From: Flavobacteriales bacterium | GTDB lineage: Bacteria; Bacteroidota; Bacteroidia; Flavobacteriales_D; CAJJDF01 | Direction of reading: 5' to 3' | NCBI GenBank assembly: GCA_018609055.1 | Contig: JABAYJ010000005.1 | Location: 46,915 to 110,914, forward strand | Length of the DNA: 64,000 nt | Shown: positions 9,198 to 61,145 of the stretch, in pieces | Layout: the number at the start of each line of letters is the position of its first letter | How positions within the stretch are numbered: the first letter of the stretch is position 1 | Position numbers and translations under genes: made by a program | The notes under the pieces: model-generated | Told to the model about the DNA's origin: nothing | Seen by the model: the letters and a program-made list of their open reading frames with translations, nothing else | Databases searched by the model: none

Positions 9198-9226
9198 ACA
9201 CAATGATACAACAAATATTTTTATAA

Positions 9227-9243
9227 TGATAGTATTACTATCA
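9227..9243. promoter_or_regulatory. Perfect 8-1-8 palindrome, candidate operator
   Basis: TGATAGTA-T-TACTATCA, about 30 nt upstream of the DUF2490 start. Confidence 0.5.
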
Positions 9244-9492
9244 CAAAAAGATGTAATACAATTTGTAAGTCGTTTTTTCTGTTTATTCTCCTAATGATAA
9301 ATGATCTGATTTAATAATAAAAGATGTAATTCGGCAATTATTTACTTTTTTTTTGATATATAAAAAAGTTAATTTTTGAATTGAGGATGAAAAAGTAACA
9401 AACTTTAAAACCAGTTCTCAAAAAAAAGGTTGTTTTTAAAACAAGATAAAACAGTATCTTTATCTCAATAATAATTTAAGAGATATTCGAAA

Positions 9493-10467
9493 ATGAACAA
9501 AAAATTTCCTCAAACTTTATTAGTAACAGTATTAATTAATAATAGGAAAAAGATTGTTTTTATTTCTATTTTGTGCTCAACTATAGCAGTTGGAATCACT
9601 TTTTTTATTCCAAAAAAATACTATGCGGAGGGAATAGTTTACCCAACAAATTCCAATTCTATAAAAGAAGTGGTTAATAATTCTGTTTTTGGTCACGAAT
9701 ACCAAACTGACAGATTAATTCAGTTATTTGAATCACAACAAATGAAGCAAAAGCTTTTGAAGAAGTTTAACTTAATTGACTACTATGGATTGGATACCAA
9801 CAGGAAAGACTGGAGGTTTAATTTGAATAAAAGATATGCTAATGACATATCTTTTAGAAGATCAAAATACATGGCTGTTAAAGTATCAGTTAATAGTTCT
9901 TCTCCAACTATGTCTGCTAATATGGTTAATTGTATGTTGAGTTATATTGACACTATTAGAAAGGATATTTTATTCGGTAATATTTATGCACTAAAAGATA
10001 ATTTAACTTCTAAAGTTACTACTAGACAGCAAGTAGTGGATAGTTTGTTAGGGTTAATTTCTGGAGAAAAAAGGATAGTTGAACCAAATCTTTTAGGAAA
10101 AAAATTAGTTTCTAAACTAGAGGAAAATAGGAGAAAGGGAGATGTTAGTTATGGTAATGACATCATTATTAAAGCAGCTAAAAATAATTACACGCTTCAA
10201 AATGCCAAGACTATAAATGAGTATTATACCCAGCTATCTGTATTCTCTAACCTGAAGAAAGATTTAATCGGGATTAACGAAAAAATTAGCATGCCTTTTC
10301 CTAAAGTGTATATAATATCCTCTGCTATTCCAGATTTTAAAAAATCCTCTCCCTCTTTCTTCCTGAATGCTATCATAGGATTGTTATTGGGATTGTTTGG
10401 TTCAATAACGTATTTTATTTTAAGCAGTAGCCTTAAAGAAATATCTAAGGAATTAAATGATGATTGA
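9493..10467 (+). CDS. Wzz-like polysaccharide co-polymerase / chain-length determinant
   Basis: N-terminal TM plus PKKYYAEG, coiled-coil periplasmic region, C-terminal PDFKKSSP then TM (AIIGLLLGLFG); no kinase domain. Confidence 0.7.
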   Translation: MNKKFPQTLLVTVLINNRKKIVFISILCSTIAVGITFFIPKKYYAEGIVYPTNSNSIKEVVNNSVFGHEYQTDRLIQLFESQQMKQKLLKKFNLIDYYGLDTNRKDWRFNLNKRYANDISFRRSKYMAVKVSVNSSSPTMSANMVNCMLSYIDTIRKDILFGNIYALKDNLTSKVTTRQQVVDSLLGLISGEKRIVEPNLLGKKLVSKLEENRRKGDVSYGNDIIIKAAKNNYTLQNAKTINEYYTQLSVFSNLKKDLIGINEKISMPFPKVYIISSAIPDFKKSSPSFFLNAIIGLLLGLFGSITYFILSSSLKEISKELNDD

Positions 10468-11887
10468 TAAAATCAGAAAATATAATTTTTTGATTTTATC
10501 AGGTATTTTATTGGCAATTATAGCCGGTTTTTATTTTTTATTTACTGAAAATCACGAAAAATTAATTCTATTAACTACGGTTTTTATTAGTGTTATTGGA
10601 GTTGTTTTGTTGCTTCAAAATATTCAGTCAATTCCTTTTGTAATAGCATTCATGACACCTCTATCTCTCGATTTTGTGTTGGGTGGAGGTACTAAATTAT
10701 CATTACCGTTAGAGGGGTTTATATTATTTGTAATCTTCTATTTTTTTCTTGTTTTTTTAATCAAGAAACCTGAAAATCTTAATAAACTCAATCATCCTAT
10801 TACCTGGTTGTTGAGTATACTGATACTAGTTATGTGCATGAGTTCATTGATAGGAGATTATGCTATTATTTCTATTAAGAAAACAATTTCTCAAACAATC
10901 TATATTCTAGGTTTCTTTGTAATTACAATCCTTTTGACAAAGAAAACATCTTCTTTAAGTAAGCTTTATTTTTGGTATGCTATAGGGATGATTATACCAA
11001 TAGGTAATTCATTATATAAACATGCTAATTTAGATTTTGTTCAGTCTGCATCTGTTTATACGGCTATGCCTTTTTATGATGAGCACACTATTTTTGGGGC
11101 TTGTGTTGCTTTTTTAATTCCTTTTGTTTTTTTAAGAACTGGATTTTTTCAAAAAAACAAAATCCATTTTGGATTCTGTTCACTTTCACTTTTTTTAGTA
11201 ATAGCTGTGCTTCATTCGTATTCTAGAGCCTCTTGGATAAGCCTCTCACTAGCTTTATTAGTCGATGTTTTTATTTTGTTGAAAGGAAAATTCAATATGT
11301 TCTTGGGTATAATTGCTATTCTTGTTTCTGTAATATGGTTTAATTATTCTGATGTTTATTCCGAAATGAGAAGAACTTCAGTTAAATACAGTGATCAGTT
11401 TTCTCAGCATTTAGTGTCGGTTACAAATCTTAAGAATGATGCATCTAATCGAGAAAGAATTAATAGATGGGTATCTGCTTACAGAATGTTTGAGGAAAAA
11501 CCATTGCTAGGCCATGGCCCAGGAACCTATCAATTTGAGTATGGTAAATATCAAACAAATGAATTTACAACAAGAATAAGTACGCATAGAGGTGATAAAG
11601 GAAATGCTCATTCGGAGTATTTAATGTTCTTGTCCGAAACAGGTATTTTAGGGTTTATAATTTTCTTATTGATAATATTAAAATCATTCCAAGTAGGGAT
11701 AAGCTTAGCACTAAAAAAAATCGAGTCTGAAGATAGATTAATTCTACTTTCATCATTACTTGGTCTCACCACTTTTTATGTGCACGGCTTATTTAATGCT
11801 TTTAGCGACTCACCAAAAATGGCAATATTATTTTTAGGAAGTTTAGCTATATTGACTCAAATAGATATTAAATATAAAATCAAGTAG
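10457..11887 (+). CDS. O-antigen ligase / Wzy_C family membrane protein
   Basis: Multi-TM; SYSRASW, SNRERINRW, KPLLGHGPG, NAHSEYL...ETGILG. Confidence 0.85.
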   Translation: MMIDKIRKYNFLILSGILLAIIAGFYFLFTENHEKLILLTTVFISVIGVVLLLQNIQSIPFVIAFMTPLSLDFVLGGGTKLSLPLEGFILFVIFYFFLVFLIKKPENLNKLNHPITWLLSILILVMCMSSLIGDYAIISIKKTISQTIYILGFFVITILLTKKTSSLSKLYFWYAIGMIIPIGNSLYKHANLDFVQSASVYTAMPFYDEHTIFGACVAFLIPFVFLRTGFFQKNKIHFGFCSLSLFLVIAVLHSYSRASWISLSLALLVDVFILLKGKFNMFLGIIAILVSVIWFNYSDVYSEMRRTSVKYSDQFSQHLVSVTNLKNDASNRERINRWVSAYRMFEEKPLLGHGPGTYQFEYGKYQTNEFTTRISTHRGDKGNAHSEYLMFLSETGILGFIIFLLIILKSFQVGISLALKKIESEDRLILLSSLLGLTTFYVHGLFNAFSDSPKMAILFLGSLAILTQIDIKYKIK

Positions 11888-11912
11888 GAAATGTATTAAC
11901 TTTCCTTTTTAA

Positions 11913-12827
11913 ATGAATAAATCAACTAACATATTGCCTTCTTTTTTAAAAGTATTAATATACTTTGATGTTTTTAGATACCCGCTTACTATTATAGAAA
12001 TGAAAAGAATGGTACCTGAAAATGAAGAGGCTGATTTGGAGTTAGAGTTAGAAAAGTTGATTAAAACGCAGTTGATTTTTAAAGATGATAATCTTTATGG
12101 ATTAAATGAAGATAAAAAATATTTTACAGAAAGAAGGAAAGGAAATACAAGAGCAGAAAAGCATAAAGAGAAAGCATTTAAACGAGCAAAATTTATTTCA
12201 AAATTTCCTTACGTGAGAGGTGTATTTATTTCGGGTTCTTTTTCAAAAGGACATATGTTACCCGATGGGGATGTAGATTACTTTATAGTCACTGAGCACA
12301 ATAGAATGTGGTTTTCCAGGACTATATTAATTTTATTTAAAAAACTCTTTTTATTTAATTCAAGGAAATTTTTCTGTTTAAACTACTTTAAGGGGCAACA
12401 AGAATTAATGATTGAAGAACAAAATATTTTTACTGCCACCGAATTGTTCACTTTGATTCCAGTTGTAAATAAAGAACTTTATAAAAGCTTGATACAAGCT
12501 AATAATTGGATAGAGGATTATTTTGCTATAAGTAAGATTCCTGATAATAATGCTATATCCCTTATTAAAGGGCTTTTACAATCGATTGGAGAGAATATTT
12601 TCAATAATAAAATTGGCGAAAATTTAGACAAGTATTTCATGAAAATCACTCTTAATAGATGGAAAAATAAGTTTGGAAACATGACTAAACAAGATTTTGA
12701 TATCGCAATGAAAAGTTCAAGAAATATCTCAAAACATCATCCGAGTAATTTTCAGAAGAAGGTTCTTTCAGAATATGAAACCAAGTGTAAATCAATGATA
12801 TCAGAATATGCAAAACGTATTATTTAG
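11913..12827 (+). CDS. Pol-beta superfamily nucleotidyltransferase domain protein
   Basis: GVFISGSFSKG...DGDVDYFIV (GS-x-DxD motif) after an N-terminal helical region (YFDVFRYPLT). Confidence 0.7.
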   Translation: MNKSTNILPSFLKVLIYFDVFRYPLTIIEMKRMVPENEEADLELELEKLIKTQLIFKDDNLYGLNEDKKYFTERRKGNTRAEKHKEKAFKRAKFISKFPYVRGVFISGSFSKGHMLPDGDVDYFIVTEHNRMWFSRTILILFKKLFLFNSRKFFCLNYFKGQQELMIEEQNIFTATELFTLIPVVNKELYKSLIQANNWIEDYFAISKIPDNNAISLIKGLLQSIGENIFNNKIGENLDKYFMKITLNRWKNKFGNMTKQDFDIAMKSSRNISKHHPSNFQKKVLSEYETKCKSMISEYAKRII

Positions 12828-14271
12828 TCATAGTTATTACTACAAGATGGATCCTAAGCAATGGGATACAGGCATGCCTTATCCTCCATTGGGAACAATT
12901 TATGCGGCTAGTTTTTTGAGAGAAAATGGTTGTCAAGTAGATTTGTTTGATGTGGGACTAAGAGATTCTCCTAACGAGATTAAACCAATACTTGAGAGTT
13001 CAAAACCTAAGTTTTTAGTCCTATATGATGATGGGTTTAATTACCTAACTAAAATGTGCTTAACCAATATGCGTGAGGCTGCATTTAAGATGATAAAGAT
13101 GGGAAAAGAGTCTGGTTGCACGATTATAGTTTCAAGTTCCGATTCTACAGATCATTATAAAGAATACTTAAACAAAGGAGCTGACATTGTATTGTTAGGA
13201 GAGGGAGAAATATCTTTATTAGAAGCAATTAATAATATTAATGAGGGAAACCCTTTGGTAGATGTAAAAGGTATAGTTTTTAAAGAAGGAGAAAAAGTCA
13301 TTAATAACGGTAGGAGAGAGGTGATAAAAGATTTAGATTTTTTACCACAACCTGCATGGGATTTAATAGATGTTGATTCATATAAAAAGGCATGGACAAG
13401 TAGATTTCCATTTGCATTAAATATTGCTACAACAAGGGGTTGTCCGTATAAATGTAATTGGTGTGCTAAACCAATTTATGGGAACAGATACAACTCTCGA
13501 TCACCACAAAGAGTAGTTGAGGAGATTCAATTTTTATCTGATAAGCATGGAGTAACTAACTTTTGGATGTGTGATGATATTTTTGGATTAAAACCAAATT
13601 GGGTTCAAAAATTTGATGAAACTTTATTAGAGAACAACTTAAAAATTAGTTTTAAAATCCAGAGTAGAGCCGATTTGTTATTGAAAGAAAACAATATTGA
13701 CTCACTTGTTAGTTCGGGGTTAAAAGAAGTATGGATAGGAGCGGAGAGTGGTTCGCAAGGGATTTTGGACGCAATGGATAAGGGAACTACAATTAAGCAA
13801 ATAGAAGACTCTACAAAGCTACTTCAGCAAAAAGATGTGAGAGTTGCTTTCTTTATTCAATATGGATATTCTGGAGAAACTAAAGAGGATATTGATAAAA
13901 CTATCACTTTAATAAAAAGATGCAAACCTGATGATATTGGTATTTCGGTTTCCTACCCTTTACCAGGGACTAAATTTTATGAAGCTGTTAAAAATCAGTT
14001 GAAGGAAAAGAAAAACTGGACAGATTCTAATGATTTAGCAATGATGTTTTCGGGTACTTTTAACCAAGGTTTTTATAAAAAATTGCACAGCTACACCCAC
14101 AAAACTTTTCAGAAAACAAGAGGTTTGGATGCTTTGAAAGGATTACTAAAAAATCCTTTATCAATTAATTCATCTAAATTAAAAACTATACTTAAACTAC
14201 CAGTTTACTGGATTTTGGGTTGGAAAGAAAAGTTGGAATTATCTAAAATGGAAAACGTAAACAAAGTTTAA
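12808..14271 (+). CDS. Cobalamin-binding radical SAM protein (class B methylase-like), copy 1
   Basis: N-terminal B12-binding-type domain (YPPLG, GEGE); RGCPYKCNWC; DDIF; GAESGSQ; PLPGT. Confidence 0.9.
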   Translation: MQNVLFSHSYYYKMDPKQWDTGMPYPPLGTIYAASFLRENGCQVDLFDVGLRDSPNEIKPILESSKPKFLVLYDDGFNYLTKMCLTNMREAAFKMIKMGKESGCTIIVSSSDSTDHYKEYLNKGADIVLLGEGEISLLEAINNINEGNPLVDVKGIVFKEGEKVINNGRREVIKDLDFLPQPAWDLIDVDSYKKAWTSRFPFALNIATTRGCPYKCNWCAKPIYGNRYNSRSPQRVVEEIQFLSDKHGVTNFWMCDDIFGLKPNWVQKFDETLLENNLKISFKIQSRADLLLKENNIDSLVSSGLKEVWIGAESGSQGILDAMDKGTTIKQIEDSTKLLQQKDVRVAFFIQYGYSGETKEDIDKTITLIKRCKPDDIGISVSYPLPGTKFYEAVKNQLKEKKNWTDSNDLAMMFSGTFNQGFYKKLHSYTHKTFQKTRGLDALKGLLKNPLSINSSKLKTILKLPVYWILGWKEKLELSKMENVNKV

Positions 14272-51878: not shown

Positions 51879-52247
51879 ATGGAATTAGCAGGAAAAGTAA
51901 AAGTGATATTTGACAAACAAACGTTTGGAAGTGGATTTGAAAAAAGAGAAGTAGTAGTTACTACTCAAGAGCAGTATCCTCAAGACATTAAGTTTGAAGT
52001 GTACAAAGAAAAATGTGATATGTTGAACAACTTCGCAGTAAACGAAGATGTAACAGTACATTTTAACCTAAGAGGAAACGAATACAATGGAAAGTATTTT
52101 GTGAATCTTAACGCATGGAAAATTGATAAAGGAGCAGCAGGAGCTTCACCAGAAGGAAATGTAGTGCCAGATAATGCAGCACCATTACCAACTTCTGAAT
52201 CACCATTTGATTCTGGAAGTGATGGAGGAGACGATTTACCGTTTTAA
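51879..52247 (+). CDS. DUF3127 family protein (SSB-like OB fold with acidic tail)
   Basis: FEKREVVV, QYPQ, GNEYNGKYF, AWKI, C-terminal DDLPF. Confidence 0.85.
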   Translation: MELAGKVKVIFDKQTFGSGFEKREVVVTTQEQYPQDIKFEVYKEKCDMLNNFAVNEDVTVHFNLRGNEYNGKYFVNLNAWKIDKGAAGASPEGNVVPDNAAPLPTSESPFDSGSDGGDDLPF

Positions 52248-52272
52248 TCTAGAAATGTAAATATTGAAAATG

Positions 52273-52301
52273 AAAGGGACGATTTTATCGTCCCTTTTTT
52301 T
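52273..52301 (+). terminator. Rho-independent terminator
   Basis: AAAGGGACGAT-TTT-ATCGTCCCTTT plus T run. Confidence 0.85.
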
Positions 52302-52331
52302 GTAACTTGTTTTTTAAAATATTTATAAAAA

Positions 52332-53126
52332 TTGTCTATTAATACGTCCAATATATTTGATTCTGCAGCTGAGGCTTATGATAATACATTTACTCACTCT
52401 GTGATAGGCAAAGCGCAAAGGAAAAGAGTATATCATTGGTTGAATAAAGTTGATTTTTTTAATGAAAAAAATAAAATTTTTGAAATAAATTGTGGAACTG
52501 GATTTGATGCAGAACAAATTCACAACAAAGGATTACAAATTGTAGCGACTGATGGCTCAGGTAAAATGATAGAGGTTGCTAAAGAAGCAAGATCCACTGA
52601 GATTGATTTTTTTAAACTTCAGTTTAGTGAGGTTGCTAAGGATGAAAAATTCAAGCAAAGCACTATTTTATTCTCTAATTTTGGAGGACTAAATTGTTTG
52701 AGTAAGACTGAACTGAAAGGTTTTACTAAGGATATTGCAGAAGTTCAGACAAAAGGAGATTTAATAGCTTGGGTAATAATGCCTGATCAATGTATGATGG
52801 AATCATTTTATTTTTTACTTAAATTTAAGTTTAAAAAGGTATTCAGAAGAAAGCAGAACGAATCGTTAAAAGTAAATGTTGATGGTGTAGATGTGGAAAC
52901 GTATTACCACTCTCCATATGATTTGAAAGAGGTTTTGGGAGATAAGTACAGGGTTGAATTAACAAAACCAGTTGCTCTTTTTCTTCCGCCTTCATATTTA
53001 GAATCCTTTTTTAAAAAGAATAAATTTTTGTTAAAAGTATTAGAGTTATTAGAGAAAATGTTCGGTTGGATTTCTTTTTACTCAAACTTTGGAGATCACT
53101 ATATAATAATTGCCAGAAGACTATGA
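52332..53126 (+). CDS. Class I SAM-dependent methyltransferase
   Basis: FDSAAEAYD, EINCGTG, ATDGSGKMI, FSNFGGLNC; TTG start. Confidence 0.85.
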   Translation: MSINTSNIFDSAAEAYDNTFTHSVIGKAQRKRVYHWLNKVDFFNEKNKIFEINCGTGFDAEQIHNKGLQIVATDGSGKMIEVAKEARSTEIDFFKLQFSEVAKDEKFKQSTILFSNFGGLNCLSKTELKGFTKDIAEVQTKGDLIAWVIMPDQCMMESFYFLLKFKFKKVFRRKQNESLKVNVDGVDVETYYHSPYDLKEVLGDKYRVELTKPVALFLPPSYLESFFKKNKFLLKVLELLEKMFGWISFYSNFGDHYIIIARRL

Positions 53127-54505
53127 ATGTAATACTTACACACGGTTATTTTCTCCATGAAGATGAGAAAGAAAAGGCAATTATGCGGCCTTATCCTCCT
53201 TTGGGGATTTTATATTTATCGGGTTATTTAAAAGATAAAAACGTGAATCACGAAGTGTTTGATTCTACTTTTTCATCAGAAGAAGAATGGATTAGTTATG
53301 TAGAAGTACACAAACCAAAACTGATTGCTTTCTATACTAATTTGATGACCAAAGTGAAGATTTTGCATCTTATCGATAGATTGAAAAAATCGGATTCATT
53401 CAATGATACTAAGTTTTTACTGGGAGGTCCTGATTTAACTTATAACGTAGAAAACTACATGAAATTTGGTGCTGATTTTTTAGTAATTGGCGAAGGTGAA
53501 GAAACTTTTCACGAAACTATTTCTCAGTTTGAAGGAGACAAAGAATTTGAAAAAGTAAATGGATTGGTTTTTAAAAATGAGAAAGGAGAAATTGTAAAAA
53601 ACCCTCCTCGAGTAAAAATTAGAGATGTAAATGAGCTTTCATTTCCCAATAGAAATGCAATAGATTTATCTCAATATCTTTCTACCTGGAAAACTCATCA
53701 TGGAAAAAGCACAATAAATATATCTACACAAAGAGGATGTCCATACACTTGTAAGTGGTGTAGTACAGCTGTTTATGGGCAGAGTTATCGAAGACGATCT
53801 GCTAAATTGGTTGTAGATGAAATAGAGCAATTAATAAAAGATTACAATCCAGATGCACTTTGGTTTGTGGATGATGTTTTTACAGTGAGTCACAAATGGC
53901 TTGATGAGTTTCATAAGGAAATGACTGAAAGAAATGTGTCAATTCAATTCGAATGCATTACAAGAGCTGAAAGACTAAATGAAGAAGTGTTACAAAAACT
54001 AAAAGATATTGGTTGTTTTAGAATTTGGATAGGAGCAGAAAGTGGTTCGCAGAGAATCATAGAAAAAATGGATAGAAAGGTAGAGTTAACTACGGTAAAA
54101 GAAATGATTCAATTAACCACAAAAATGGGCATGGAATCAGGAACTTTTATCATGCTTGGTTATCCTACCGAAACAATGCATGACATTAATCTAACGATTC
54201 AGTATTTGAAAGATGCAAATCCTGATGTGTTTACCATTACAGTGACTTATCCAATAAAAGGAACTTCTCTTTATACCGAAATAGAAAAAGACATTACAAT
54301 TCAACCACCCTGGAATAATTCAACCGACAGAGAGATTGATTTTGAAAGAACTTATTCGCGTAAATTTTATGATTATGCAGTGAGCAAAGTGGTGAATGAT
54401 GTTAATTTATATAAATTAAAATCAAAAAAAGGCAACAGTAAGTCTGTCTTAAAGATGAAAGCAAAATCTATTGTTTTGGGCTCTTTAATGAAATTGAATA
54501 AGTGA
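53123..54505 (+). CDS. Cobalamin-binding radical SAM protein, copy 2
   Basis: YPPLGILYL, LGGPD, GEGEET, RGCPYTCKWC, VDDVF, GAESGSQ; start ATG 53123 in an ATGA overlap. Confidence 0.92.
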   Translation: MNVILTHGYFLHEDEKEKAIMRPYPPLGILYLSGYLKDKNVNHEVFDSTFSSEEEWISYVEVHKPKLIAFYTNLMTKVKILHLIDRLKKSDSFNDTKFLLGGPDLTYNVENYMKFGADFLVIGEGEETFHETISQFEGDKEFEKVNGLVFKNEKGEIVKNPPRVKIRDVNELSFPNRNAIDLSQYLSTWKTHHGKSTINISTQRGCPYTCKWCSTAVYGQSYRRRSAKLVVDEIEQLIKDYNPDALWFVDDVFTVSHKWLDEFHKEMTERNVSIQFECITRAERLNEEVLQKLKDIGCFRIWIGAESGSQRIIEKMDRKVELTTVKEMIQLTTKMGMESGTFIMLGYPTETMHDINLTIQYLKDANPDVFTITVTYPIKGTSLYTEIEKDITIQPPWNNSTDREIDFERTYSRKFYDYAVSKVVNDVNLYKLKSKKGNSKSVLKMKAKSIVLGSLMKLNK

Positions 54506-55626
54506 TAATGAAAAAATCATTAGTCATATTCCTACTAATTGTTTTAGTGCTTTCATGTTCTAAATCAAAGGAGACTGTCAATGATTTTTCTATCATAAAT
54601 CTTAAATGGAATCAGTCCTATTCTAGCCAAACAATTGAGGATGTAACCAAAGGACTGAACTGGACTTTATCTAATATTGGAGTTTCTTTAAAATTCTCAT
54701 CCAGTGATTATTTACAGGTTTCAAATTCTATATTAGAGTTGAATATTAAAGCCTTAAATTTTGAGTCCAATGGAAGAGAAATTCTATTAAAACTTCACGA
54801 AAGCATCTATAGTTCGGACGAATACATATTGAATAATAGTGTTGATATTGGAAGATACGTTTGTTTACTAATAGGAGCTCCAAATCACTATAATGAACTG
54901 GTTGGAGTGCCTAATTCGCTTCAAGATATTTTATCCAAATATCAATTATTACCAGATAAAGGAAAAATAAATAACTCAAGCATATCTCTTGTAGATAGAG
55001 TTATAGAGTATTCACTTCAAGAAAATGAGTTACAGTTATTATTGTCAACTGAAGTTGATTCAGCTACCAATTCTATTTATGAATTTGAGACTATAGAAAT
55101 CATGAAAAATGGTCAATTGAAGTTCGGAGTTTACGATAAAAACGGATTTCTAAAAACTGCAGCTGATGAGTCGATTACCAATGCTGGTAAAATTGCAAAA
55201 TGCATGTGGTGTCACGAAAGTAATATTGCACAATTAATAAATAGTCAAACAAACGAACCAGGATTTTTAAGTTCCTTACAACTTGAAAATACACTTCGAA
55301 TGTACAATCAAAAACTTTTCTCAAGTCAGGTTACAAGAACTAACAATGTTGTAGATTATATCAACTTGCAAGAACATACAAAAATGGAGTTGTTATACAT
55401 CTCTTTCATGAATCCATCTGCCCAGAGATTGAGTGAAGAGTGGAATATGTCTCAGTCTGATGTATTTATAAGATTAAGCTCACTAGCAAGGCATACTTAC
55501 AGTGAATTTCCTTTTTTGGGGCTACTTTACCACCGAGATGAAGTTAAAAGATACGCGCCAGTTACAGGATTAGCAGTTTCTTCAAGCGTAAGGGAGAAAA
55601 GTCTAATAGAAGTTAATCACCTTTAA
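54502..55626 (+). CDS. Lipoprotein with a single CxxCH (possible c-type heme) motif
   Basis: Lipobox VLSC; AGKIAKCMWCHE, with CMWCH at 55201-55215. Confidence 0.65.
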   Translation: MIMKKSLVIFLLIVLVLSCSKSKETVNDFSIINLKWNQSYSSQTIEDVTKGLNWTLSNIGVSLKFSSSDYLQVSNSILELNIKALNFESNGREILLKLHESIYSSDEYILNNSVDIGRYVCLLIGAPNHYNELVGVPNSLQDILSKYQLLPDKGKINNSSISLVDRVIEYSLQENELQLLLSTEVDSATNSIYEFETIEIMKNGQLKFGVYDKNGFLKTAADESITNAGKIAKCMWCHESNIAQLINSQTNEPGFLSSLQLENTLRMYNQKLFSSQVTRTNNVVDYINLQEHTKMELLYISFMNPSAQRLSEEWNMSQSDVFIRLSSLARHTYSEFPFLGLLYHRDEVKRYAPVTGLAVSSSVREKSLIEVNHL

Positions 55627-57187
55627 ATGAACTGGATAAAAACAAATAGTGTTTTTGTAATCCTACTATTCTTAGGCGTAATAGCTGTTTTCTTTTTTAA
55701 GGATTATTCTATTCATGATTTTGGCAATTATTATTTTGGAGCATATTTTTTAGGTCAAGGGGGGGGGTAATTCTGAATTATATTTCCCTCATATTTTTAA
55801 TCAAAACATTGCCCAACTCGGTTATCCCGATTTATATTTGAGCTATGCTCCCAACACTCCTTTTTTATCGGTCTTCTTTTATCCATTCACTTTTCTGCCT
55901 GCTTACTCAGCTAAAATTGTGTTTAATACTTTAAGTGTTTTATTATTCTCCTATTCAATTAATAAATGGTTTGTTAGGATTAAAATTAAGCCTCAATATT
56001 TAATTTTAATCCTTCTAATTGTAGCGATTCCTATTACCAATGGATTACTGTTTGGGCAAGTTTATTTATTATTGTTCTTTCTTCTTTCTGAAGGTTATTT
56101 CGCTTTAAAAAATGGAAACAATATAAAAGTTGCCTTGTTTTGGTCTATTGTAATTTGTCTAAAAGTATTTCCGATATTTTTGCTTTTATTCTTAATATTA
56201 AATAGGAAGTTTAGGCCATTTATTCACTCTATTGTTGGAGTTTTTATACTCTTTTTATTCAGCTTAATATTTGTAGATTTTGAAGTATGGAAATTCTATT
56301 TGATGGAGGCTCTACCTAAAGCTTTAAGTGGTGAAATTTATGCTGAATTCGTTCCTCATTATCAATCGGTAGATGAATTATTAAAACACTATTTTGTGTT
56401 TCATCCGAACTATAATCCAAATCCAATTTATGATAGTTATCCTTTGTACAAAGGAATATTGTTAGGGTTTAAATCTCTTCTTATGATGGTTGGAGTTCTT
56501 TTAGCAATTCAAAAGAAGGAGCTGCTAATCCAGTTTTGCTATTGGATATTTGCTGCAATGCTTTTTTCATCTTATGGGAGTTCCTATTCTATGATTTTAG
56601 TATTGTTTATGGCTATACTTTTATTGCAATACAACAAGGTTTTTAAGGTTCGTTCAGTGGTGTTTTTCATCTTACTTTTTTTAATGAGCAATTTGCCAGT
56701 TTCCTTATTTATAGGTTTTAATTTCCCCTTTATTAAAACCTTGTTTTATCTATCAATTCTCTTTCTTCTCTTTTTTAGAGAAATCACATTTAATAAACTA
56801 CGATATCTATTAGGTCTATCAATACTCGTCTCAATTATTATATTTGCTAAGCAGGAGAAACTAATTCCAGAGGATTATTTTACCTCAGAAAATCAACCTG
56901 GATTAATCTATGATTATGATGTCAATGAATCAGAGTTGTCAGCTAAGTATTGGAGTGTAGAAGGTGAGAAAGAATTTGTTTTCAAAGAAGCTATTAGCAG
57001 TCAGTCTATTGATAATATTGAGTTGATTGATAATCAGATTTACTATCATGGTAAGCAGATGACTTTTATTAATTCTAATAAACTAAAGCCGGTTTGTATA
57101 AATAGAAATACAATTGTTTATCTTTCAGATCAAGGAAGAGGACTTGGTTTTTATACTGTTAGAGAATTAAAAATACCTTTGAAATAA
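55627..57187 (+). pseudogene. GT87/DUF2029-like membrane glycosyltransferase, frameshifted at a G9 tract (55759-55767)
   Basis: ATG 55627, TM1 then HDFGNYY. G8 instead of G9 joins in frame to NSELYFPH...YAPNTPF...GQ...LKVFP. Confidence 0.78.
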
Positions 57188-57867
57188 TGCTAAACTATTT
57201 AAAAAACATAAGGGAGAATAGGAGGCAGAAGCAATTTTATAATAGCTTAATAAACACTAGCGACTTGTGTTTTGACATTGGAGCTAACCTTGGATTCAAG
57301 AGTAAAATATTTCTTAGTTTAGGCGCAAAAGTTATTGCGATTGAACCACAGTCAAGCTGTATTAAAGAGCTGAAAAAGATTAAAAACAACAACTTTAAAT
57401 GTTTTCAATTTGCAGTTGGTTCTAAAAATGAAGAAAAAGAATTACAGCTTGCTAATCATGTTGAAGTTGCTACATTTTCACAATCATTTATCGATTATTT
57501 TGAGACTGAAGATTTAAAATGGACTAAAACAGAAACTGTAAAGGTTAAAACTTTAGATAGTTTAATTGAGGATCATGGAACACCAGACTTTTGTAAAATA
57601 GACATTGAAGGATATGAATTAGAAGTGCTATCTGCTTTAACTAAATCTATTCCTTTGATAGAATTCGAGTTTACAGGAGGATTTATTACCGAAACCATAG
57701 AGATTCTAAATTTATTTAAAAATGACAGCTACAAATTCAATTATAACTTAAATGAAAAACCTAAATTTGAGATAAGTGAATGGATTAGCTCTCAAAAGAT
57801 GATTGATATTATAAACTCTCTTCAAAAAGAAAGACTTCACGGAAACATTTTTGTAAAAAGTAAATGA
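57187..57867 (+). CDS. FkbM family methyltransferase
   Basis: FDIGANLG, AIEP, TLD, KIDIEGYELEVL. Confidence 0.92.
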   Translation: MLNYLKNIRENRRQKQFYNSLINTSDLCFDIGANLGFKSKIFLSLGAKVIAIEPQSSCIKELKKIKNNNFKCFQFAVGSKNEEKELQLANHVEVATFSQSFIDYFETEDLKWTKTETVKVKTLDSLIEDHGTPDFCKIDIEGYELEVLSALTKSIPLIEFEFTGGFITETIEILNLFKNDSYKFNYNLNEKPKFEISEWISSQKMIDIINSLQKERLHGNIFVKSK

Positions 57868-59384
57868 AAAATAAAATAATCATATTCAATCCCAGAAGTG
57901 CTAATGCAAAGCATAGAATTCCTAATTCTATACTTCAAGTTGGAGCATCCATCCATGGTAAGTTTGAGTACGTTTTTGTAGATGGTAATTTAGAGAAAGA
58001 TCCATTTGAGACTATTGAAAACTATTTTAAAACAGGCGAATTTAAATATTTCTGTTCTACTGTAATGCCTGGTCCTCAGCTTCAACAAGCTATTCCTTTT
58101 ACAAAAAAAATCAAAGAACAATTTCCAGATTCAATAACAGTTTGGGGTGGATATTTTGCTGCTAACCAATATAAGGTTTCAATCAATTCTGGATATGTAG
58201 ATTACATTGTAACTGGACCAGGTGATGTTGCTTTCCCCTCTTTAATTGGAGCTTTGGAGGAAAATAATGTAGAAGAGATTCCTAAGATTAAAAACCTTAT
58301 TTACTTAGAAGAGAATAAAACAATAACGAAGACTGCAAAAGAAGCTTTGTTAAATCAAGATAAATTACCTGATTTACCTTACGAATACCTTAATGAGTTT
58401 TATCCGTTAGAGGGTTATTTGTCTAAAACATTCATGGGTAACAAAACGTTTTCATACCACTCAAGTATTGGATGTCCTTTTTCTTGTTCTTTTTGTGCAG
58501 TTGTGCCTATTTATAATGCAAGGTGGCAAGGGAAATCAGCAGAGTCTATTTATAAAGATGTTAAGTTTTTTAAGGATAAATACGGTATTGATGCGATAGA
58601 ATTTCATGATAATAACTTTTTCACTTCTCGTAAAAGAGTAATGGCTTTTTGTGAATTGGTAAAGGATGATGGAATCCAATGGTGGGGAGAAGGAAGAATA
58701 GATACATTAAATAAATATTCGGATGAGGAATTACAACTGATGCGTGAAGCAGGTTGTAAAATGATATTCTTGGGAGCAGAGACAGGAAATGATGAAGTTC
58801 TTAAGCAAATGAATAAGGGAGGGACTCAAACAGGAGCAATGATTGAGGAGTTTGTATTAAGAATGCGAAATGCTGATATTATTCCTGAATTATCTTTCGT
58901 TTTAGGATTACCATTAGAAACTGAACAAAAAGTATTTGATCAAATAAATTGGGATATCAATTTTATTAAAAAGATTAAAAAAATAAACCCTGAGGCTGAG
59001 ATTATTATTTATTTGTACAGTCCAGTGCCAACCGAAGGATCAGAATTATATAAAACGATTACCGAAGCAGGATTTAATTTCCCTGAGAGATTAAAAGATT
59101 GGATTTCTCCAGTTTGGGAGAATTTTGACTTAAGAAAAAATCCACTTACACCTTGGTTAACCCCAAGAATGATTAGTAGAATTAAGAATTTTGAAACAGT
59201 ATTAAACGGAGTTTTTCCTACTGTATCAGATTTTAGAATTACTAAGTTTAAAAGAGCAATAGTTAGAACAACAGCTGTTACAAGATATAAATTGGGATGG
59301 TATGCATATCCATATGAAATTAAAGTATGGCTTAGATTATGGAAGTACCGCCAGCCAGAAATTGAAGGGTTTTACACAGAATAA
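57864..59384 (+). CDS. Cobalamin-binding radical SAM protein, copy 3
   Basis: VWGGYF, GPGD, GCPFSCSFC, HDNNFF, GAETG, YSPVP. Confidence 0.9.
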   Translation: MKNKIIIFNPRSANAKHRIPNSILQVGASIHGKFEYVFVDGNLEKDPFETIENYFKTGEFKYFCSTVMPGPQLQQAIPFTKKIKEQFPDSITVWGGYFAANQYKVSINSGYVDYIVTGPGDVAFPSLIGALEENNVEEIPKIKNLIYLEENKTITKTAKEALLNQDKLPDLPYEYLNEFYPLEGYLSKTFMGNKTFSYHSSIGCPFSCSFCAVVPIYNARWQGKSAESIYKDVKFFKDKYGIDAIEFHDNNFFTSRKRVMAFCELVKDDGIQWWGEGRIDTLNKYSDEELQLMREAGCKMIFLGAETGNDEVLKQMNKGGTQTGAMIEEFVLRMRNADIIPELSFVLGLPLETEQKVFDQINWDINFIKKIKKINPEAEIIIYLYSPVPTEGSELYKTITEAGFNFPERLKDWISPVWENFDLRKNPLTPWLTPRMISRIKNFETVLNGVFPTVSDFRITKFKRAIVRTTAVTRYKLGWYAYPYEIKVWLRLWKYRQPEIEGFYTE

Positions 59385-60047
59385 ATGAGAGCTTTTATAA
59401 AAAAAATATCTCATCCATTTCTTAAGTTTCTGTTTAATAAATACCACAGTAAACCCAGAGAATATTCATACAAAGATGTCTCGGTTTTGGTTCATCCAGA
59501 TGTTTTCCCACCACACTTTACAATTAGTACAAAGATTTTATTGGACTTTATTAATGAGCTTGATTTAACTAATAAATCTATATTAGAACTAGGTTGTGGT
59601 TCTGGTATTATTTCTTTGTTTGCAGCCTCTAAGGGAGGAGTTGTAACAGCAAGTGATATAAATCCAACAGCTATTGATTTTTTAAATACAGCAGCCAGTA
59701 AAAATGAGCTAAAAGTTAATGCTTTATTCTCTGATTTATTTCAGAATATTTCACAAAAAGAATTCGATTATATTATAATTAATCCACCTTATTATCCCAA
59801 GAATCCTTCAGAAATGAAAGAGAGAGCTTGGTTTTGTGGAGAGGATTTTATCTATTTCGAAAACCTGTTTTTACAATTGATTGCATTTATTCCAAATTCT
59901 AGTGTTTTAATGATACTCTCAGAAGATTGCGAGATTGAAACAATTAAGGCGATAGCAAGTAAAAATAAACTTGAATTTTTGAAAGTGCACGAGACAAAAG
60001 TTTCGTTTGAACGGAATTTTATATTTTCAATTACAAAAACAGACTAA
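59385..60047 (+). CDS. HemK/PrmC-like small SAM methyltransferase
   Basis: PDVFPP, LELGCGSG, SDINP, SDLF, INPPY. Confidence 0.85.
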   Translation: MRAFIKKISHPFLKFLFNKYHSKPREYSYKDVSVLVHPDVFPPHFTISTKILLDFINELDLTNKSILELGCGSGIISLFAASKGGVVTASDINPTAIDFLNTAASKNELKVNALFSDLFQNISQKEFDYIIINPPYYPKNPSEMKERAWFCGEDFIYFENLFLQLIAFIPNSSVLMILSEDCEIETIKAIASKNKLEFLKVHETKVSFERNFIFSITKTD

Positions 60048-60052
60048 AATAC

Positions 60053-60060
60053 TATCTTTG
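60053..60060 (+). promoter_or_regulatory. Bacteroidota primary-sigma -7 element
   Basis: TATCTTTG upstream of ATG 60084; marks the end of the methylase operon. Confidence 0.55.
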
Positions 60061-60083
60061 CAACCTAATTCAAAACCAACAAA

Positions 60084-61145
60084 ATGGAGAAGATAATTAG
60101 TGGTATACAGCAAATGGGAATAGGAGTTCCTGATGTAGAAAAGATTTTTGCTTGGTACCGAGAAATGTTTGGGATAGATATCAAAGTATTTGAAGAAGCT
60201 GCAGAAGCTCCTTTGATGATTGATTATACTGGAAATAAAGTACAAAGTCGTACTGCAACTCTTGCCCTAAATATGGAAAGCGGAGGTGGATTTGAGATAT
60301 GGCAATATACTTCTCGTAATACAGAAAAGGCTGCTTTTGATATTCAATTAGGAGATTTAGGTATCTATAGTTGTAAGATTAAATCAAGAGATGTAAAAGC
60401 TACTTTCAATTTTTTAACCAAAAAAGGAGTAGATATTTTAGGAGACATTACTAAAAATCCTGCTGGAGAAGAAAATTTCTTTATCAAGGATCCAAACGGA
60501 AATATTTTTAATATTGTTGAGGGAAAAGGATTTTTTGTAGATACTAAGCATCCAGCAAAAACTGGTGGAGTTGCAGGAGCAATTTTGGGAGTATCTGATA
60601 TGGAAAAATCATTGAAACTTTACAAAAAAGTATTGGGTTACGAAACTATTGATTTTGATGAAACAGCAGAATTCTCCTGTTTCAAAGGATTGCCTTCTGG
60701 AGGAAAAACTTTTAGAAGAGTTCAGTTGTCTCACAAGAAAGACAAAGTAGGAGCATTTGCAAAATTATTAGGGCCAACTACAATTGAATTAGTTCAAGAA
60801 ATAGGAGGGAGCCCAAGAAAAATATTTGAAAACAGATTTTGGGGAGATTGGGGATTCATTCACTTATGTTTTGATGTACAAAGAATGGATATGCTTAAAA
60901 AGGACTGTGAATCAGCAGGATTTCCTTTTACAGTAGATAGCGACAACTCATTTGATATGGGAGAAGCTGCTGGAAGATTTTCTTACATAGAAGATCCAGA
61001 CGGAGCACTTATTGAGTTTGTAGAAACGCACAAGGTTCCATTGATGAAAAAAATAGGTTGGTACATCAATCTTAAGAAAAGGAATCCAGAAAAGAGTTTG
61101 CCAACTTGGATGCTGAAAGCCATGAAAATGAGTAGAGTAAAATAA
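60084..61145 (+). CDS. VOC (glyoxalase/bleomycin resistance) family protein with tandem domains
   Basis: QMGIGVPD, FIKDPNGN, LGVSDMEKS, HLCF, YIEDPDGALIEF. Confidence 0.85.
   Translation: MEKIISGIQQMGIGVPDVEKIFAWYREMFGIDIKVFEEAAEAPLMIDYTGNKVQSRTATLALNMESGGGFEIWQYTSRNTEKAAFDIQLGDLGIYSCKIKSRDVKATFNFLTKKGVDILGDITKNPAGEENFFIKDPNGNIFNIVEGKGFFVDTKHPAKTGGVAGAILGVSDMEKSLKLYKKVLGYETIDFDETAEFSCFKGLPSGGKTFRRVQLSHKKDKVGAFAKLLGPTTIELVQEIGGSPRKIFENRFWGDWGFIHLCFDVQRMDMLKKDCESAGFPFTVDSDNSFDMGEAAGRFSYIEDPDGALIEFVETHKVPLMKKIGWYINLKKRNPEKSLPTWMLKAMKMSRVK

What the first reader, a model, noticed from the sequence alone, without database searches (positions are those of the whole stretch)
52332..60047. Uncharacterised multi-methylase envelope operon: 2 B12-radical SAM enzymes, 3 SAM methyltransferases, GT87-like transferase and a CxxCH lipoprotein
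Seen: seven co-directional genes whose stops and starts overlap or abut (53123/53126, 54502/54505, 55626/55627, 57187, 57864/57867, 59384/59385). They are bounded by a terminator (52273-52301) and a new TAnnTTTG promoter (60053). Five of the seven are predicted SAM-using enzymes from four families: class I, FkbM, HemK-like NPPY, and B12-radical SAM. Known: cobalamin-dependent radical SAM enzymes often methylate unactivated carbon or phosphorus, FkbM-type enzymes are typically O-methyltransferases, and GT87 enzymes transfer from polyprenyl-phosphate donors outside the cytoplasm. Inference: the operon builds a heavily C/O/N-methylated building block in the cytoplasm and transfers it to a surface glycan, lipid or protein. 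I see no NRPS/PKS, precursor peptide or squalene-hopene cyclase that would assign it to a known pathway.
Basis: partly seen in the sequence, partly recalled or inferred. Interest (0 to 1): 0.85.

Follow-up and report, generated by a model that had tools for sequence, protein, structure and literature searches.

The report
Split B12-dependent surface-glycan tailoring island
This is one half of an uncharacterised gene cluster, widespread in Flavobacteriales, that most likely decorates a cell-surface sugar polymer using three vitamin-B12 radical enzymes, and its membrane transferase gene is switched off here by a run of nine G's whose length differs between wild marine populations.

Summary
The seven co-directional genes and their predicted domains are real, but three points change the picture.

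1. **The GT87-like gene is broken.** A G9 run (55759-55767) puts it out of frame. Contigs from four independent marine metagenomes carry G10, G10, G8 (in frame) and G7T (in frame). This looks like an ON/OFF switch, though sequencing error is not excluded.

2. **The operon is the distal half of a larger conserved cluster.** The usual order is NTase-like, rSAM0, MT25, rSAM1, a variable glycosyltransferase block, rSAM2, then a HemK-like methyltransferase. The proximal half (Wzz, Wzy_C, NTase-like, rSAM0) lies at 9.5-14.3 kb in the same window. rSAM1 relatives occur at 590 of 600 scanned places. Clear orthologues are patchy, in 25 of 301 genomes of the order.

3. **Gene fusions link the core enzymes to glycan assembly.** The closest distant relatives of rSAM0 are fused to GT4 glycosyltransferases. 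The NTase-like protein is fused to a sugar-phosphate transferase or to a GT4.

The lipoprotein belongs to a compact unnamed family (331 representatives, mostly Bacteroidota where the phylum is on record). Its K-C-x-W-C-H-E motif is invariant, and its fold shows a weak cytochrome P460/c'-beta likeness.

No radical SAM enzyme here reaches any curated family cut-off, and the product is unknown. The proposed chemistry remains inference.

The parts
9493..10467 (+). Wzz-like chain-length determinant, at the start of the proximal half of the system
   Evidence: Pfam Wzz, 39.2 bits. Wzz and Wzy_C also lie beside the cluster in G013, and Wzy_C alone in G016. Neither was found in 0 of 80 wider loci.
10457..11887 (+). 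Wzy_C (O-antigen ligase/polymerase-like) membrane protein
   Evidence: Pfam Wzy_C, 78.5 bits.
11913..12827 (+). NTase-like protein: winged helix plus a pol-beta nucleotidyltransferase core. It is the first gene of the conserved core.
   Evidence: Pfam NTP_transf_2, 26.2 bits. S107, G108, K112, D120 and D122 are invariant in 26 of 26 sequences. AF2 model pLDDT 91.3. The core is closest to ANT(4') at Z 7.9 and LinB at Z 6.4. It is fused to Bac_transf or GT4 in 4 proteins.
12808..14271 (+). rSAM0, a B12-binding-type radical SAM enzyme and 32% paralogue of rSAM1
   Evidence: Pfam Radical_SAM, 65.9 bits; B12-binding 20.9 bits, below the cut-off. CPYKCNWC motif. 57-64% identical to the gene next to MT25-rSAM1 in five other genomes. 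43-48% identical to the C-terminal halves of 14 GT4 fusion proteins.
52273..52301 (+). Hairpin plus T run; left edge of the island
   Evidence: Metagenome contigs diverge at 52310-52315.
52332..53126 (+). MT25, a class I SAM methyltransferase
   Evidence: Pfam Methyltransf_25, 29.3 bits. Beside rSAM1 in 57 of 58 full-context loci.
53126..54505 (+). rSAM1, a B12-binding radical SAM enzyme
   Evidence: Pfam B12-binding 51.7 bits and Radical_SAM 71.6 bits. C205, C209 and C212 are invariant. Best solved relative is 9ccb_A, E 2.6e-23.
54502..55626 (+). Lipoprotein with an invariant CxxCH motif (here called lipoX), a candidate c-type haem protein
   Evidence: K233, C234, W236, C237, H238 and E239 are kept in 38 of 38 members. 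AF2 model pLDDT 88.6. The top three wide fold matches are cytochromes c'-beta/P460, Z 6.2, 5.6 and 5.2. The family has 331 representatives.
55627..55770 (+). N-terminal fragment of the GT87-like GT-C transferase (TM1 and the HDFGNYYFG loop), ending at TAA
   Evidence: It aligns to the N-termini of 22 orthologues. The [HG]DFxNxY[FY] motif is present in 22 of 22.
55759..55767 (+). G9 homopolymer that causes the frameshift; candidate slippage switch
   Evidence: Its length is G10, G10, G8 and G7T in contigs of four metagenome runs. None of 22 orthologues has a G/C run of 5 or more there.
55760..57187 (+). Remainder of the GT87-like gene in the +1 frame (the mechanical ORF is 55838-57187)
   Evidence: Pfam GT87, 66.5 bits.
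57187..57867 (+). FkbM-family methyltransferase
   Evidence: Pfam Methyltransf_21, 62.3 bits. TIGR01444, 89.2 bits against a cut-off of 37.7.
57864..59384 (+). rSAM2, a B12-binding-type radical SAM enzyme
   Evidence: Pfam Radical_SAM 56.3 bits; B12-binding 24 bits, below the cut-off. GCPFSCSFC motif. 63-69% identical orthologues lie next to MTS in other genomes.
59385..60047 (+). MTS/HemK-like methyltransferase with NPPY
   Evidence: Pfam MTS, 63.4 bits. NPPY read. PrmC equivalog not reached: 63.2 bits against 199.1.
60053..60060 (+). TATCTTTG before the next gene; right edge of the island
   Evidence: Metagenome contigs diverge at 60046.

Best explanation
The seven genes are an accessory, horizontally mobile island that tailors a cell-surface glycan. 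They form the distal half of a conserved Flavobacteriales cluster. The proximal half (Wzz, Wzy_C, NTase-like, rSAM0) lies 38 kb upstream in the same window.

**Shown**
- The gene content, the conserved synteny elsewhere, and the split in this genome.
- The frameshift at the G9 run, and different run lengths in contigs from other samples.
- Fusions of rSAM0 relatives and of the NTase-like protein to glycosyltransferases.

**Inferred mechanism**
- On the cytoplasmic side, a sugar or lipid-linked sugar is modified by the ANT/LinB-like nucleotidyltransferase, by three B12-type radical SAM enzymes (C-methylation or another radical step), and by class I, FkbM and NPPY methyltransferases.
- The product is carried on polyprenyl phosphate and transferred outside the cytoplasm by the GT87-like GT-C enzyme.
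- The haem lipoprotein always accompanies that transferase and acts on the outer side.
- Slippage in the poly-G run turns the transfer step ON (G8, G7T) or OFF (G9, G10).

The acceptor is not known. It could be O-antigen, EPS, lipid A/core or a glycoprotein.
For: **Conserved synteny**
- Searches show the same gene order in other genomes.
- Counts in 58 full-context loci: NTase 54, rSAM0 55, MT25 57, rSAM2 34, MTS 31, lipoX 28, GT87 22. All 22 GT87 loci also have lipoX.

**Glycan context**
- A polyprenyl-phosphate-sugar-synthase-like GT2, a second GT-C-like protein and an 11-TM protein lie inside the canonical cluster.
- Wzx, Wzy_C, two GT4 genes and a Wzy_C-Bac_transf fusion lie directly upstream of NTase-rSAM0 in G006.

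**Fusions**
- 14 of 21 long relatives of rSAM1 carry GT4 domains, and 1 carries GT2 domains.
- Their radical SAM halves are 43-48% identical to rSAM0.
- The NTase-like domain is fused to Bac_transf (3 proteins) or GT4 (1 protein).

**Accessory and mobile character**
- rSAM1 orthologues occur in 25 of 301 genomes of the order and in 2 of 13 genomes of the genus.
- The DUF3127|glyoxalase junction holds different inserts in relatives.
- Metagenome contigs diverge exactly at 52310-52315 and at 60046.

**Switch**
- X3 and X4 have no other differences from the window on the pieces listed, which lie on 52200-60100, yet both carry G10.
Against: - No product, substrate or expression was observed.
- Class B radical SAM enzymes are not all methylases.
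- The closest solved relative of rSAM1 is a protein-modifying enzyme, QCMT (passages of PMC12931638).
- This genome lacks a GT2 and the 11-TM protein inside the cluster. The only GT2 orthologue (65% identity) sits elsewhere, beside PAP2 and a PMT_2 GT-C. The local pathway may therefore be incomplete.
- Run-length calls come from assembled contigs, some at depth 4.5-9.5, and poly-G is prone to sequencing error.
- Only 2 other G/C runs of 8 or more exist in the genome, and they show no clear contingency pattern.
- Of 16 substitutions seen in the X5 and X12 contigs, 11 are non-synonymous. This gives no sign of strong constraint.
Confidence: 0.55

Rival explanations
1. The cluster matures a peptide or protein (RiPP-like, or a post-translational modification of a secreted or periplasmic protein). 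The B12 radical SAM enzymes would C-methylate residues, and the NPPY methyltransferase would N-methylate amides.
For: - The best solved relative of rSAM1 is QCMT, a protein glutamine C-methyltransferase (PMC12931638 passages).
- There are weaker hits to RiPP C-methyltransferase models.
- The last gene resembles HemK/MTQ2 protein glutamine methyltransferases.
- A radical SAM/SPASM gene is present in 15 of 80 loci.
Against: - No conserved small ORF of 40 aa or more was found among 1552 ORFs of the 80 loci. Shorter peptides were not examined.
- All family scores are far below cut-offs.
- Fusions are to glycosyltransferases, not to peptide-recognition domains.
- GT2, GT4 and GT-C genes fill the variable middle of the cluster.
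Confidence: 0.08
2. The enzymes modify a membrane lipid, for example by methylating or cyclising an isoprenoid or acyl chain, rather than a sugar.
For: There are sub-threshold hits to HpnJ, HpnR and the 'lipid biosynthesis B12-binding/radical SAM protein' model TIGR04072 (123.6 bits against 360). The polyprenyl-phosphate carrier is itself a lipid.
Against: - No lipid-synthesis gene is conserved in the cluster.
- The FabF-like and succinate dehydrogenase genes next to the proximal half belong to the neighbourhood, not to the cluster.
- Fusions are to GT4, GT2 and Bac_transf.
Confidence: 0.1
3. The G9 frameshift is not a switch. It is either a homopolymer sequencing or assembly error, or a plain inactivating mutation in a decaying island.
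For: - Poly-G runs are error-prone.
- Three of the four contig calls rest on depth 4.5-9.5.
- The local cluster lacks the GT2 and the 11-TM gene.
- Substitutions between populations are mostly non-synonymous, 11 of 16.
Against: - Five assemblies give four states, two of them in frame. The in-frame G7T call rests on a depth of 70.8.
- All other genes of the island are intact, and none of the 16 substitutions seen in the X5 and X12 contigs creates a stop codon.
- A G/C run of 9 or more is expected about 0.35 times in this 32.7% G+C genome.
- The run is absent from 22 of 22 orthologues.
Confidence: 0.3

Closest known systems
Periplasmic glycosylation modules built from a GT2 polyprenyl-phosphate-sugar synthase, a flippase and a GT-C transferase (Gtr O-antigen glucosylation, ArnC/ArnT, mycobacterial PpgS with its GT-C partner)
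   Same: - Canonical versions of the cluster hold a GT2 with sub-threshold hits to AglJ, PpgS, dolichyl-phosphate hexose transferase and ArnC models.
- They also hold a polytopic membrane protein and one or two GT-C-like proteins.
- Phase-variable expression is known for gtr (title and abstract of PMC2909390, seen in the listing).
   Different: - Three B12-type radical SAM enzymes, an ANT/LinB-like nucleotidyltransferase, three to five methyltransferases and a haem lipoprotein are added.
- The GT2 and the flippase candidate are missing from the island in this genome.
- The switch would act by homopolymer slippage. The abstract of PMC2909390 describes DNA-methylation control for gtr.
GT87 family (mycobacterial PimE-type polyprenyl-phosphate-mannose-dependent mannosyltransferases; the family role is recalled)
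   Same: Pfam GT87 scores 66.5 bits for the window gene and 79.6 bits for an intact orthologue. The protein is multi-spanning with a conserved Asp-containing first loop, in 22 of 22 orthologues.
   Different: It is a Bacteroidota protein with an extra C-terminal domain of about 120 aa. It has no NCBIfam match, its donor and acceptor are unknown, and it is frameshifted here.
Class B (cobalamin-dependent) radical SAM enzymes: QCMT, TokK, CysS, OxsB, AprD4-like, BchE, HpnJ/HpnR, PhpK
   Same: The domain order is a B12-binding domain followed by a radical SAM core with CxxxCxxC. Profile hits reach 9ccb (QCMT), 6fd2 (AprD4), 5ul2 (OxsB), 9n1b (CysS) and 7kdx (TokK).
   Different: Every curated equivalog model is missed by a wide margin. 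The genomic context is glycan assembly. The closest distant relatives are fused to GT4.
Poly-G/C contingency loci in surface-glycan transferase genes of Campylobacter, Haemophilus and Neisseria (recalled)
   Same: A homopolymer inside the 5' part of a glycosyltransferase ORF whose length decides the reading frame. Length differs between near-identical populations.
   Different: The host is a free-living marine member of the Flavobacteriales, and switching within a clone has not been shown. A full-text search for 'homopolymeric tract', 'phase variation' and 'Flavobacterium' listed only a Treponema and a Campylobacter paper.
Cytochrome P460 / cytochrome c'-beta
   Same: These are single-CxxCH, mainly beta-sheet haem proteins. 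They are the top three wide fold matches to residues 135-270 of the lipoprotein model (8brk Z 6.2, 7s5o Z 5.6, 6hiu Z 5.2), with 2je3 and 6amg also listed.
   Different: - The Z scores lie in the range that the tool calls common.
- Foldseek finds nothing.
- The Pfam P460 model finds nothing in the genome.
- The protein is a 374-aa lipoprotein with extra N- and C-terminal domains, set in a glycan cluster.

Membership tests
Class B (B12-binding) radical SAM | Radical SAM core with a CxxxCxxC cluster motif | tested here: met
   Pfam Radical_SAM scores 71.6, 56.3 and 65.9 bits, all above the cut-off of 29.5. Motifs read.
Class B (B12-binding) radical SAM | N-terminal cobalamin-binding domain above the Pfam gathering score | tested here: inconclusive
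   rSAM1 scores 51.7 bits against 32.1 and passes. rSAM2 (24.0) and rSAM0 (20.9) fall below the cut-off. Cobalamin binding cannot be tested with these tools.
Characterised class B enzymes (BchE, HpnJ, HpnR, PhpK, ApyD, QCMT, BzaD, TsrM-type) | Score at or above the NCBIfam curated cut-off | tested here: not met
   The best hit for each of the three enzymes is BchE, at 158.8, 114.9 and 158.1 bits against 481.35. All other models are also below their cut-offs.
GT87 (Pfam PF09594) | Family HMM match above the gathering score | tested here: met
   66.5 bits against 25 for 55838-57184.
GT87 (Pfam PF09594) | One intact ORF that includes the first-loop Asp | tested here: not met
   The frameshift at the G9 run separates the HDFGNYYFG loop (frame of 55627) from the rest of the protein.
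FkbM methyltransferase | TIGR01444 and PF05050 above their cut-offs | tested here: met
   89.2 bits against 37.7, and 62.3 bits against 22.7.
HemK/PrmC release-factor glutamine methyltransferase | Equivalog score at or above the cut-off | tested here: not met
   TIGR03534 scores 63.2 bits against 199.1, and TIGR00537 scores 65.8 against 87. The NPPY motif and the MTS domain are present.
c-type cytochrome | Conserved CxxCH motif in an exported protein | tested here: met
   The motif is present in 38 of 38 members. An N-terminal hydrophobic stretch followed by Cys fits a strict pattern in 30 of 38, and 4 more by reading.
c-type cytochrome | Covalently bound haem | not testable with these tools
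   Needs haem staining or spectroscopy.
Cytochrome P460 / c'-beta | Family HMM match or a clear fold match | tested here: inconclusive
   PF16694 finds nothing in G000 at E up to 10. VIA Z is 6.2, 5.6 and 5.2 for the top three chains. Foldseek gives no hit.
Phase-variable contingency locus | Homopolymer inside the ORF whose length sets the frame | tested here: met
   G9 at 55759-55767. One G fewer joins the two frames.
Phase-variable contingency locus | Length varies among otherwise near-identical genomes | tested here: met
   G10 in X3 and X4 (no other differences on the pieces listed), G8 in X5 (5 other letters on 7.6 kb) and G7T in X12 (17 other letters, the T of G7T among them, on 7.8 kb), against G9 in the window. 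The evidence is at contig level only.
Phase-variable contingency locus | Reversible switching within a clone | not testable with these tools
   Only assembled contigs were available.
GT2 / flippase / GT-C periplasmic glycosylation module | All three components encoded together | tested here: not met
   In this genome the island holds only the GT-C gene. A GT2 orthologue lies at C3:174885-175610, and the 11-TM family was not found. The components are encoded together in canonical loci such as L097.

The most novel reading that the evidence does not exclude
Cobalamin-dependent radical chemistry, probably C-methylation, is applied to lipid-linked sugars to build a multiply methylated surface-glycan epitope in many Flavobacteriales. 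A new family of P460-like haem lipoproteins works with a GT-C transferase outside the cytoplasm. In a B12-auxotrophic marine bacterium, display of this epitope is flipped ON and OFF by poly-G slippage in wild populations. Surface structure, and so exposure to phages and grazers, would then depend both on the supply of external vitamin B12 and on a contingency switch.
Probability: 0.3. Interest if true: 0.8.

Novelty: new variant of a known kind. Interest (0 to 1): 0.62.

Why it matters
- **New role for class B enzymes.** Class B radical SAM enzymes are known mainly from antibiotics, cofactors, hopanoids and RiPPs. A conserved set of three of them inside a surface-glycan locus, with relatives fused to glycosyltransferases, would open a new substrate class.
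- **Breadth.** The cluster occurs across Flavobacterium, Winogradskyella, Kordia, Aquimarina, Tenacibaculum and other genera. Experiments in a tractable Flavobacterium would therefore apply widely.
- **B12 dependence.** This genome shows no CbiC or CobS, so the system would need imported B12. That would link vitamin exchange in the sea to cell-surface make-up.
- **Variation in the wild.** The poly-G polymorphism and the sharp island borders in metagenomes fit the idea that glycan islands are where phage-driven strain diversity resides.
- **A new protein family.** The lipoprotein belongs to an unnamed family with a confident model and no clear solved relative.

Tried and rejected
**'Strain-specific insert' view.** In the 40 nearest genomes, lipoX was found only in G000 (1 of 41). 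The GT87-like gene was found only in G000 plus a 58-aa fragment in G010 (2 of 41). I first read this as a strain-specific insert. The wider scan overturned that reading.

**lipoX.**
- A PDB sequence profile search gave only a chance hit, E 0.43.
- Foldseek found nothing at E up to 0.001.
- The Pfam P460 model found nothing in G000.
- The Atlas listed only 'hypothetical protein' clusters.

**NTase-like protein.** There was no NCBIfam family. The PDB profile search gave only E 0.11 to a putative nucleotidyltransferase. The Atlas listed hypothetical proteins.

**Other negative searches.**
- rSAM2 had no long relatives at E up to 1e-20. The tool itself calls this weak evidence.
- Rfam found no family in the window, so no cobalamin riboswitch was detected there.
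- The sigma-70-type promoter scan was not above shuffles: 35 found against 43.1 expected.

**Literature.** Four full-text searches found no paper on this cluster. One search found none on homopolymer phase variation in Flavobacterium. Of all papers, I read only passages of PMC12931638. The rest I saw only as listings. Supplements were not opened.

**Other long G/C runs.** A G9 at C9:483-491 lies in an unannotated ORF and may also shift its frame. A C8 lies in frame inside SprA. Neither shows a clear contingency pattern.

**Joint in X12.** A contig skips 52510-60046 and has 1737 other letters between the two sides. Its flanks are only 35 letters long, with mismatches, so I do not rely on it.

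**Not used.** Complex prediction was not run, because I make no binding claim.

Full report
**1. Observation**

A G+C-rich hairpin with a T run lies at 52273-52301 (stem listed). TATCTTTG lies at 60053, 24 nt before the next ATG. That motif occurs in the window at chance frequency, 90 matches against 100.9 expected.

Pfam confirms most of the domain calls:
- Methyltransf_25 for the gene at 52332.
- B12-binding plus Radical_SAM for the gene at 53126.
- No family for the gene at 54502.
- GT87 (66.5 bits) for the gene at 55838.
- FkbM for the gene at 57187.
- Radical_SAM plus a sub-threshold B12-binding match for the gene at 57864.
- MTS for the gene at 59385, which also carries NPPY.

No radical SAM enzyme reaches any curated NCBIfam cut-off. 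The best hit for each is BchE at 115-159 bits against 481.

**2.

The GT87-like gene starts at ATG 55627. It runs for 47 codons into a G9 run (55759-55767) and stops at TAA. The rest of the protein continues in the +1 frame to 57187. Both parts align collinearly with 22 intact orthologues of about 511-556 aa. None of the 22 has a G/C run of 5 or more at that place.

The N-terminal fragment carries the first membrane span and the loop motif [HG]DFxNxY[FY], which all 22 orthologues keep. In GT-C enzymes the first outward-facing loop usually holds the catalytic Asp (recalled). As read, the gene should therefore be inactive.

The genome is 32.7% G+C. It has only two G/C runs of 9 and one of 8, where about 0.35 runs of 9 or more are expected.

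**3. The run length differs in nature**

The stretch is held by 20 of the 24 runs listed, from 11 studies. I laid contigs of four runs from four studies on 52200-60100.

| Run | Run of G's | Frame | Depth | Other differences from the window |
|---|---|---|---|---|
| X3 | G10 | out | 4.5 | none on the listed pieces; contigs break around the run |
| X4 | G10 | out | 6.9 | none on the listed pieces; contigs break around the run |
| X5 | G8 | in | 9.5 | 5 other letters on a contig covering 52470-60100 |
| X12 | G7T | in | 70.8 | 17 other letters, the T of G7T among them, on a contig covering 52286-60080 |

With the window's G9, five assemblies give four states. Two are in frame and three are out of frame.
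- Among the 16 substitutions seen in the X5 and X12 contigs, none creates a stop. Five are synonymous and 11 are not.
- This pattern is what a slippage switch would give. It rests on contigs, however, and poly-G is error-prone. I therefore hold the switch at about 0.6-0.7, not as proven.

**4. The operon is half of a larger, widespread cluster**

A paralogue of rSAM1 (32% identity), here called rSAM0, lies at 12808-14271. It is preceded by an NTase-like gene, a Wzy_C gene and a Wzz gene.

In five other genomes of the order (G013, G016, G027, G031, G034), NTase, rSAM0, MT25 and rSAM1 are contiguous. In four of them rSAM2 and MTS lie a few kb away. The locus from G027 showed neither.

I kept the best 80 loci. 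They come from Flavobacterium, Winogradskyella, Kordia, Aquimarina, Tenacibaculum, Olleya, Acidiluteibacter, Crocinitomix and others.

Of the 80 loci, 58 have at least 3.5 kb upstream and 9 kb downstream of rSAM1. Counts in those 58:

| Component | Loci with it (of 58) |
|---|---|
| NTase | 54 |
| rSAM0 | 55 |
| MT25 | 57 |
| rSAM2 | 34 |
| MTS | 31 |
| lipoX | 28 |
| GT87 (always together with lipoX) | 22 |
| an alternative class I methyltransferase after rSAM1 (never together with lipoX) | 19 |
| GT4 | 23 |
| an 11-TM protein of no family | 28 |
| FkbM | 11 |
| Wzz or Wzy_C | 0 |

All seven window genes occur together in 4 of 80 loci, and six (without FkbM) in 15 of 80.

In Flavobacterium the cluster sits between polA and a LacI-type regulator or rplM. 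There it also holds a small GT2 with sub-threshold hits to polyprenyl-phosphate-sugar synthase models, and a second GT-C-like membrane protein.

The cluster therefore has a conserved core and a variable glycosyltransferase middle. The window's lipoX, GT87 and FkbM genes are one version of that middle.

**5. Accessory and mobile**

Clear rSAM1 orthologues (E up to 1e-100) occur in 25 of 301 genomes of the order, in 16 of 92 genera, and in 2 of 13 genomes of the window's own genus.

Other members of the genus carry NTase, rSAM0 (76% identity), an MT25-like gene and a further methyltransferase at the same place as the window's proximal half. In G006 these genes lie directly after Wzx, Wzy_C, two GT4 genes and a Wzy_C-Bac_transf fusion. 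That arrangement is a classical Wzx/Wzy polysaccharide locus.

The site of the seven genes, between DUF3127 and a glyoxalase-family gene, varies between relatives:
- G010 has nothing there (130 bp).
- G001, G006 and G008 have about 1.1 kb.
- G003 has a methyltransferase-like piece plus a GT4.
- This genome has 7.7 kb.

Metagenome contigs from all four laid runs diverge at or near these borders, at 52310-52315 (X3, X4, X12) and at 60046 (X3, X12).

**6. Evidence on function**

- **Fusions of the radical SAM enzyme.** Of 21 long relatives of rSAM1, 14 carry GT4 domains and 1 carries GT2 domains. The radical SAM halves of those 14 are 43-48% identical to rSAM0 over nearly its whole length.
- **Fusions of the NTase-like protein.** It is found fused behind a Bac_transf sugar-phosphate transferase in 3 proteins, and behind a GT4 in 1 protein, at 40-43% identity over 94-97% of the query.
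- **NTase-like structure.** Its model (pLDDT 91.3) has a winged helix followed by a nucleotidyltransferase core.
  - The core is closest to ANT(4') (Z 7.9), LinB (Z 6.4), AAD(9) and MNT.
  - Several of these enzymes put a nucleotide on hydroxyls of sugar-like drugs.
  - The G-S...D-x-D residues are invariant in 26 of 26 sequences.
- **Solved relatives of rSAM1.** By sequence profile they are QCMT (9ccb, E 2.6e-23), AprD4, OxsB, CysS and TokK. The identity of 9ccb comes from passages of PMC12931638. These hits show membership of the class, not the function.
- **The lipoprotein (lipoX).**
  - The family is compact: 331 representatives among 1.84 billion proteins, and those listed are mostly about 375-395 aa.
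  - It is unnamed, and it is mostly Bacteroidota where the phylum is on record.
  - The K-C-x-W-C-H-E motif is invariant in 38 of 38 members.
  - Its model is confident (pLDDT 88.6) and has no Foldseek match.
  - In the wide search the three best chains are cytochrome c'-beta and P460 proteins (Z 6.2, 5.6, 5.2), aligned over residues 135-270, which hold the CxxCH.
  - That is coherent but weak, and the Pfam P460 model finds nothing.

**7. Most likely mechanism**

On the cytoplasmic side, a sugar or lipid-linked sugar is handled by the nucleotidyltransferase, by three B12-type radical SAM enzymes, and by class I, FkbM and NPPY methyltransferases. The product is then carried on polyprenyl phosphate to the outer face. 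There the GT87-like GT-C enzyme attaches it to an unknown acceptor, with the haem lipoprotein acting alongside. All of these steps are inferred.

The local pathway looks reduced. The island has no GT2 and no 11-TM protein. The only GT2 orthologue (65% identity) sits on another contig, next to PAP2 and a PMT_2-type GT-C.

The genome has no CbiC and no CobS at 100% estimated completeness, so cobalamin would have to be imported.

**8. Rivals**

- **Peptide maturation.** This is suggested by the QCMT and HemK likenesses and by a SPASM gene in 15 of 80 loci. No conserved small ORF of 40 aa or more was found, and the fusions point to glycans.
- **Lipid modification.** This is suggested only by sub-threshold HpnJ, HpnR and TIGR04072 hits.
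- **Error or decay.** The frameshift may be a sequencing error or plain gene decay rather than a switch.

**9. Novelty**

The general kind of system is known: an accessory surface-glycan locus with a GT-C transfer step and possible phase variation. The following are not described in the papers I could search:
- a conserved trio of class B radical SAM enzymes in such a locus;
- their fusion to glycosyltransferases in other phyla;
- the ANT-like nucleotidyltransferase;
- the haem lipoprotein family;
- a poly-G polymorphism in a free-living marine member of the Flavobacteriales.

I rate it a new variant of a known kind, with interest 0.62.

Noticed in passing
window 8547-14271: A second variable glycan island sits between an M20 peptidase/carbonic anhydrase and a CPBP (Rce1-like) protease. 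Here it holds DUF2490, Wzz, Wzy_C, NTase-like and rSAM0. In genus relative G006 the same site holds Wzx, Wzy_C, two GT4 genes, Wzy_C-Bac_transf, NTase, rSAM0 and two methyltransferases.
   Followed up: partly
G000:C9:483-491 (locus L102): This is the only other G9 run in the genome. It lies at the end of an unannotated ORF, and a second open frame continues after it, so it may be another frameshift. A DegT-like sugar aminotransferase gene lies 1 kb downstream.
   Followed up: partly
G000:C4:122002-122009 (locus L103; outside the window): A C8 run lies in frame inside a SprA-like type IX secretion gene of about 2000 aa.
   Followed up: no
whole genome G000: No CbiC and no CobS were found in a genome rated 100% complete. 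The organism probably cannot make cobalamin, yet this system alone encodes three B12-type radical SAM enzymes. No cobalamin riboswitch was found in the window.
   Followed up: partly
window 52200-60100, run X12: One contig (2776 letters, depth 84) touches 52475-52510 and 60046-60080 with 1737 other letters between. It may come from a co-occurring strain with a different insert at the same site. The flanks are short and carry mismatches.
   Followed up: no
proteins P0155, P0156: Two database proteins of 823-826 aa read rSAM1 and lipoX as a single chain, with the lipoprotein signal in the middle. This is probably read-through at the overlapping stop/start rather than a real fusion.
   Followed up: partly
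window 15335-15754 (-): A small protein with a CHU_C type IX secretion sorting domain lies next to the CPBP protease at the edge of the proximal island.
   Followed up: no
G000:C3:174885-177980 (locus L101): A GT2 (65% identical to the cluster-borne GT2 of Flavobacterium), a PAP2 phosphatase and a PMT_2-type GT-C lie together. They look like a separate ArnC/ArnT-like module that could supply the lipid-linked donor.
   Followed up: partly
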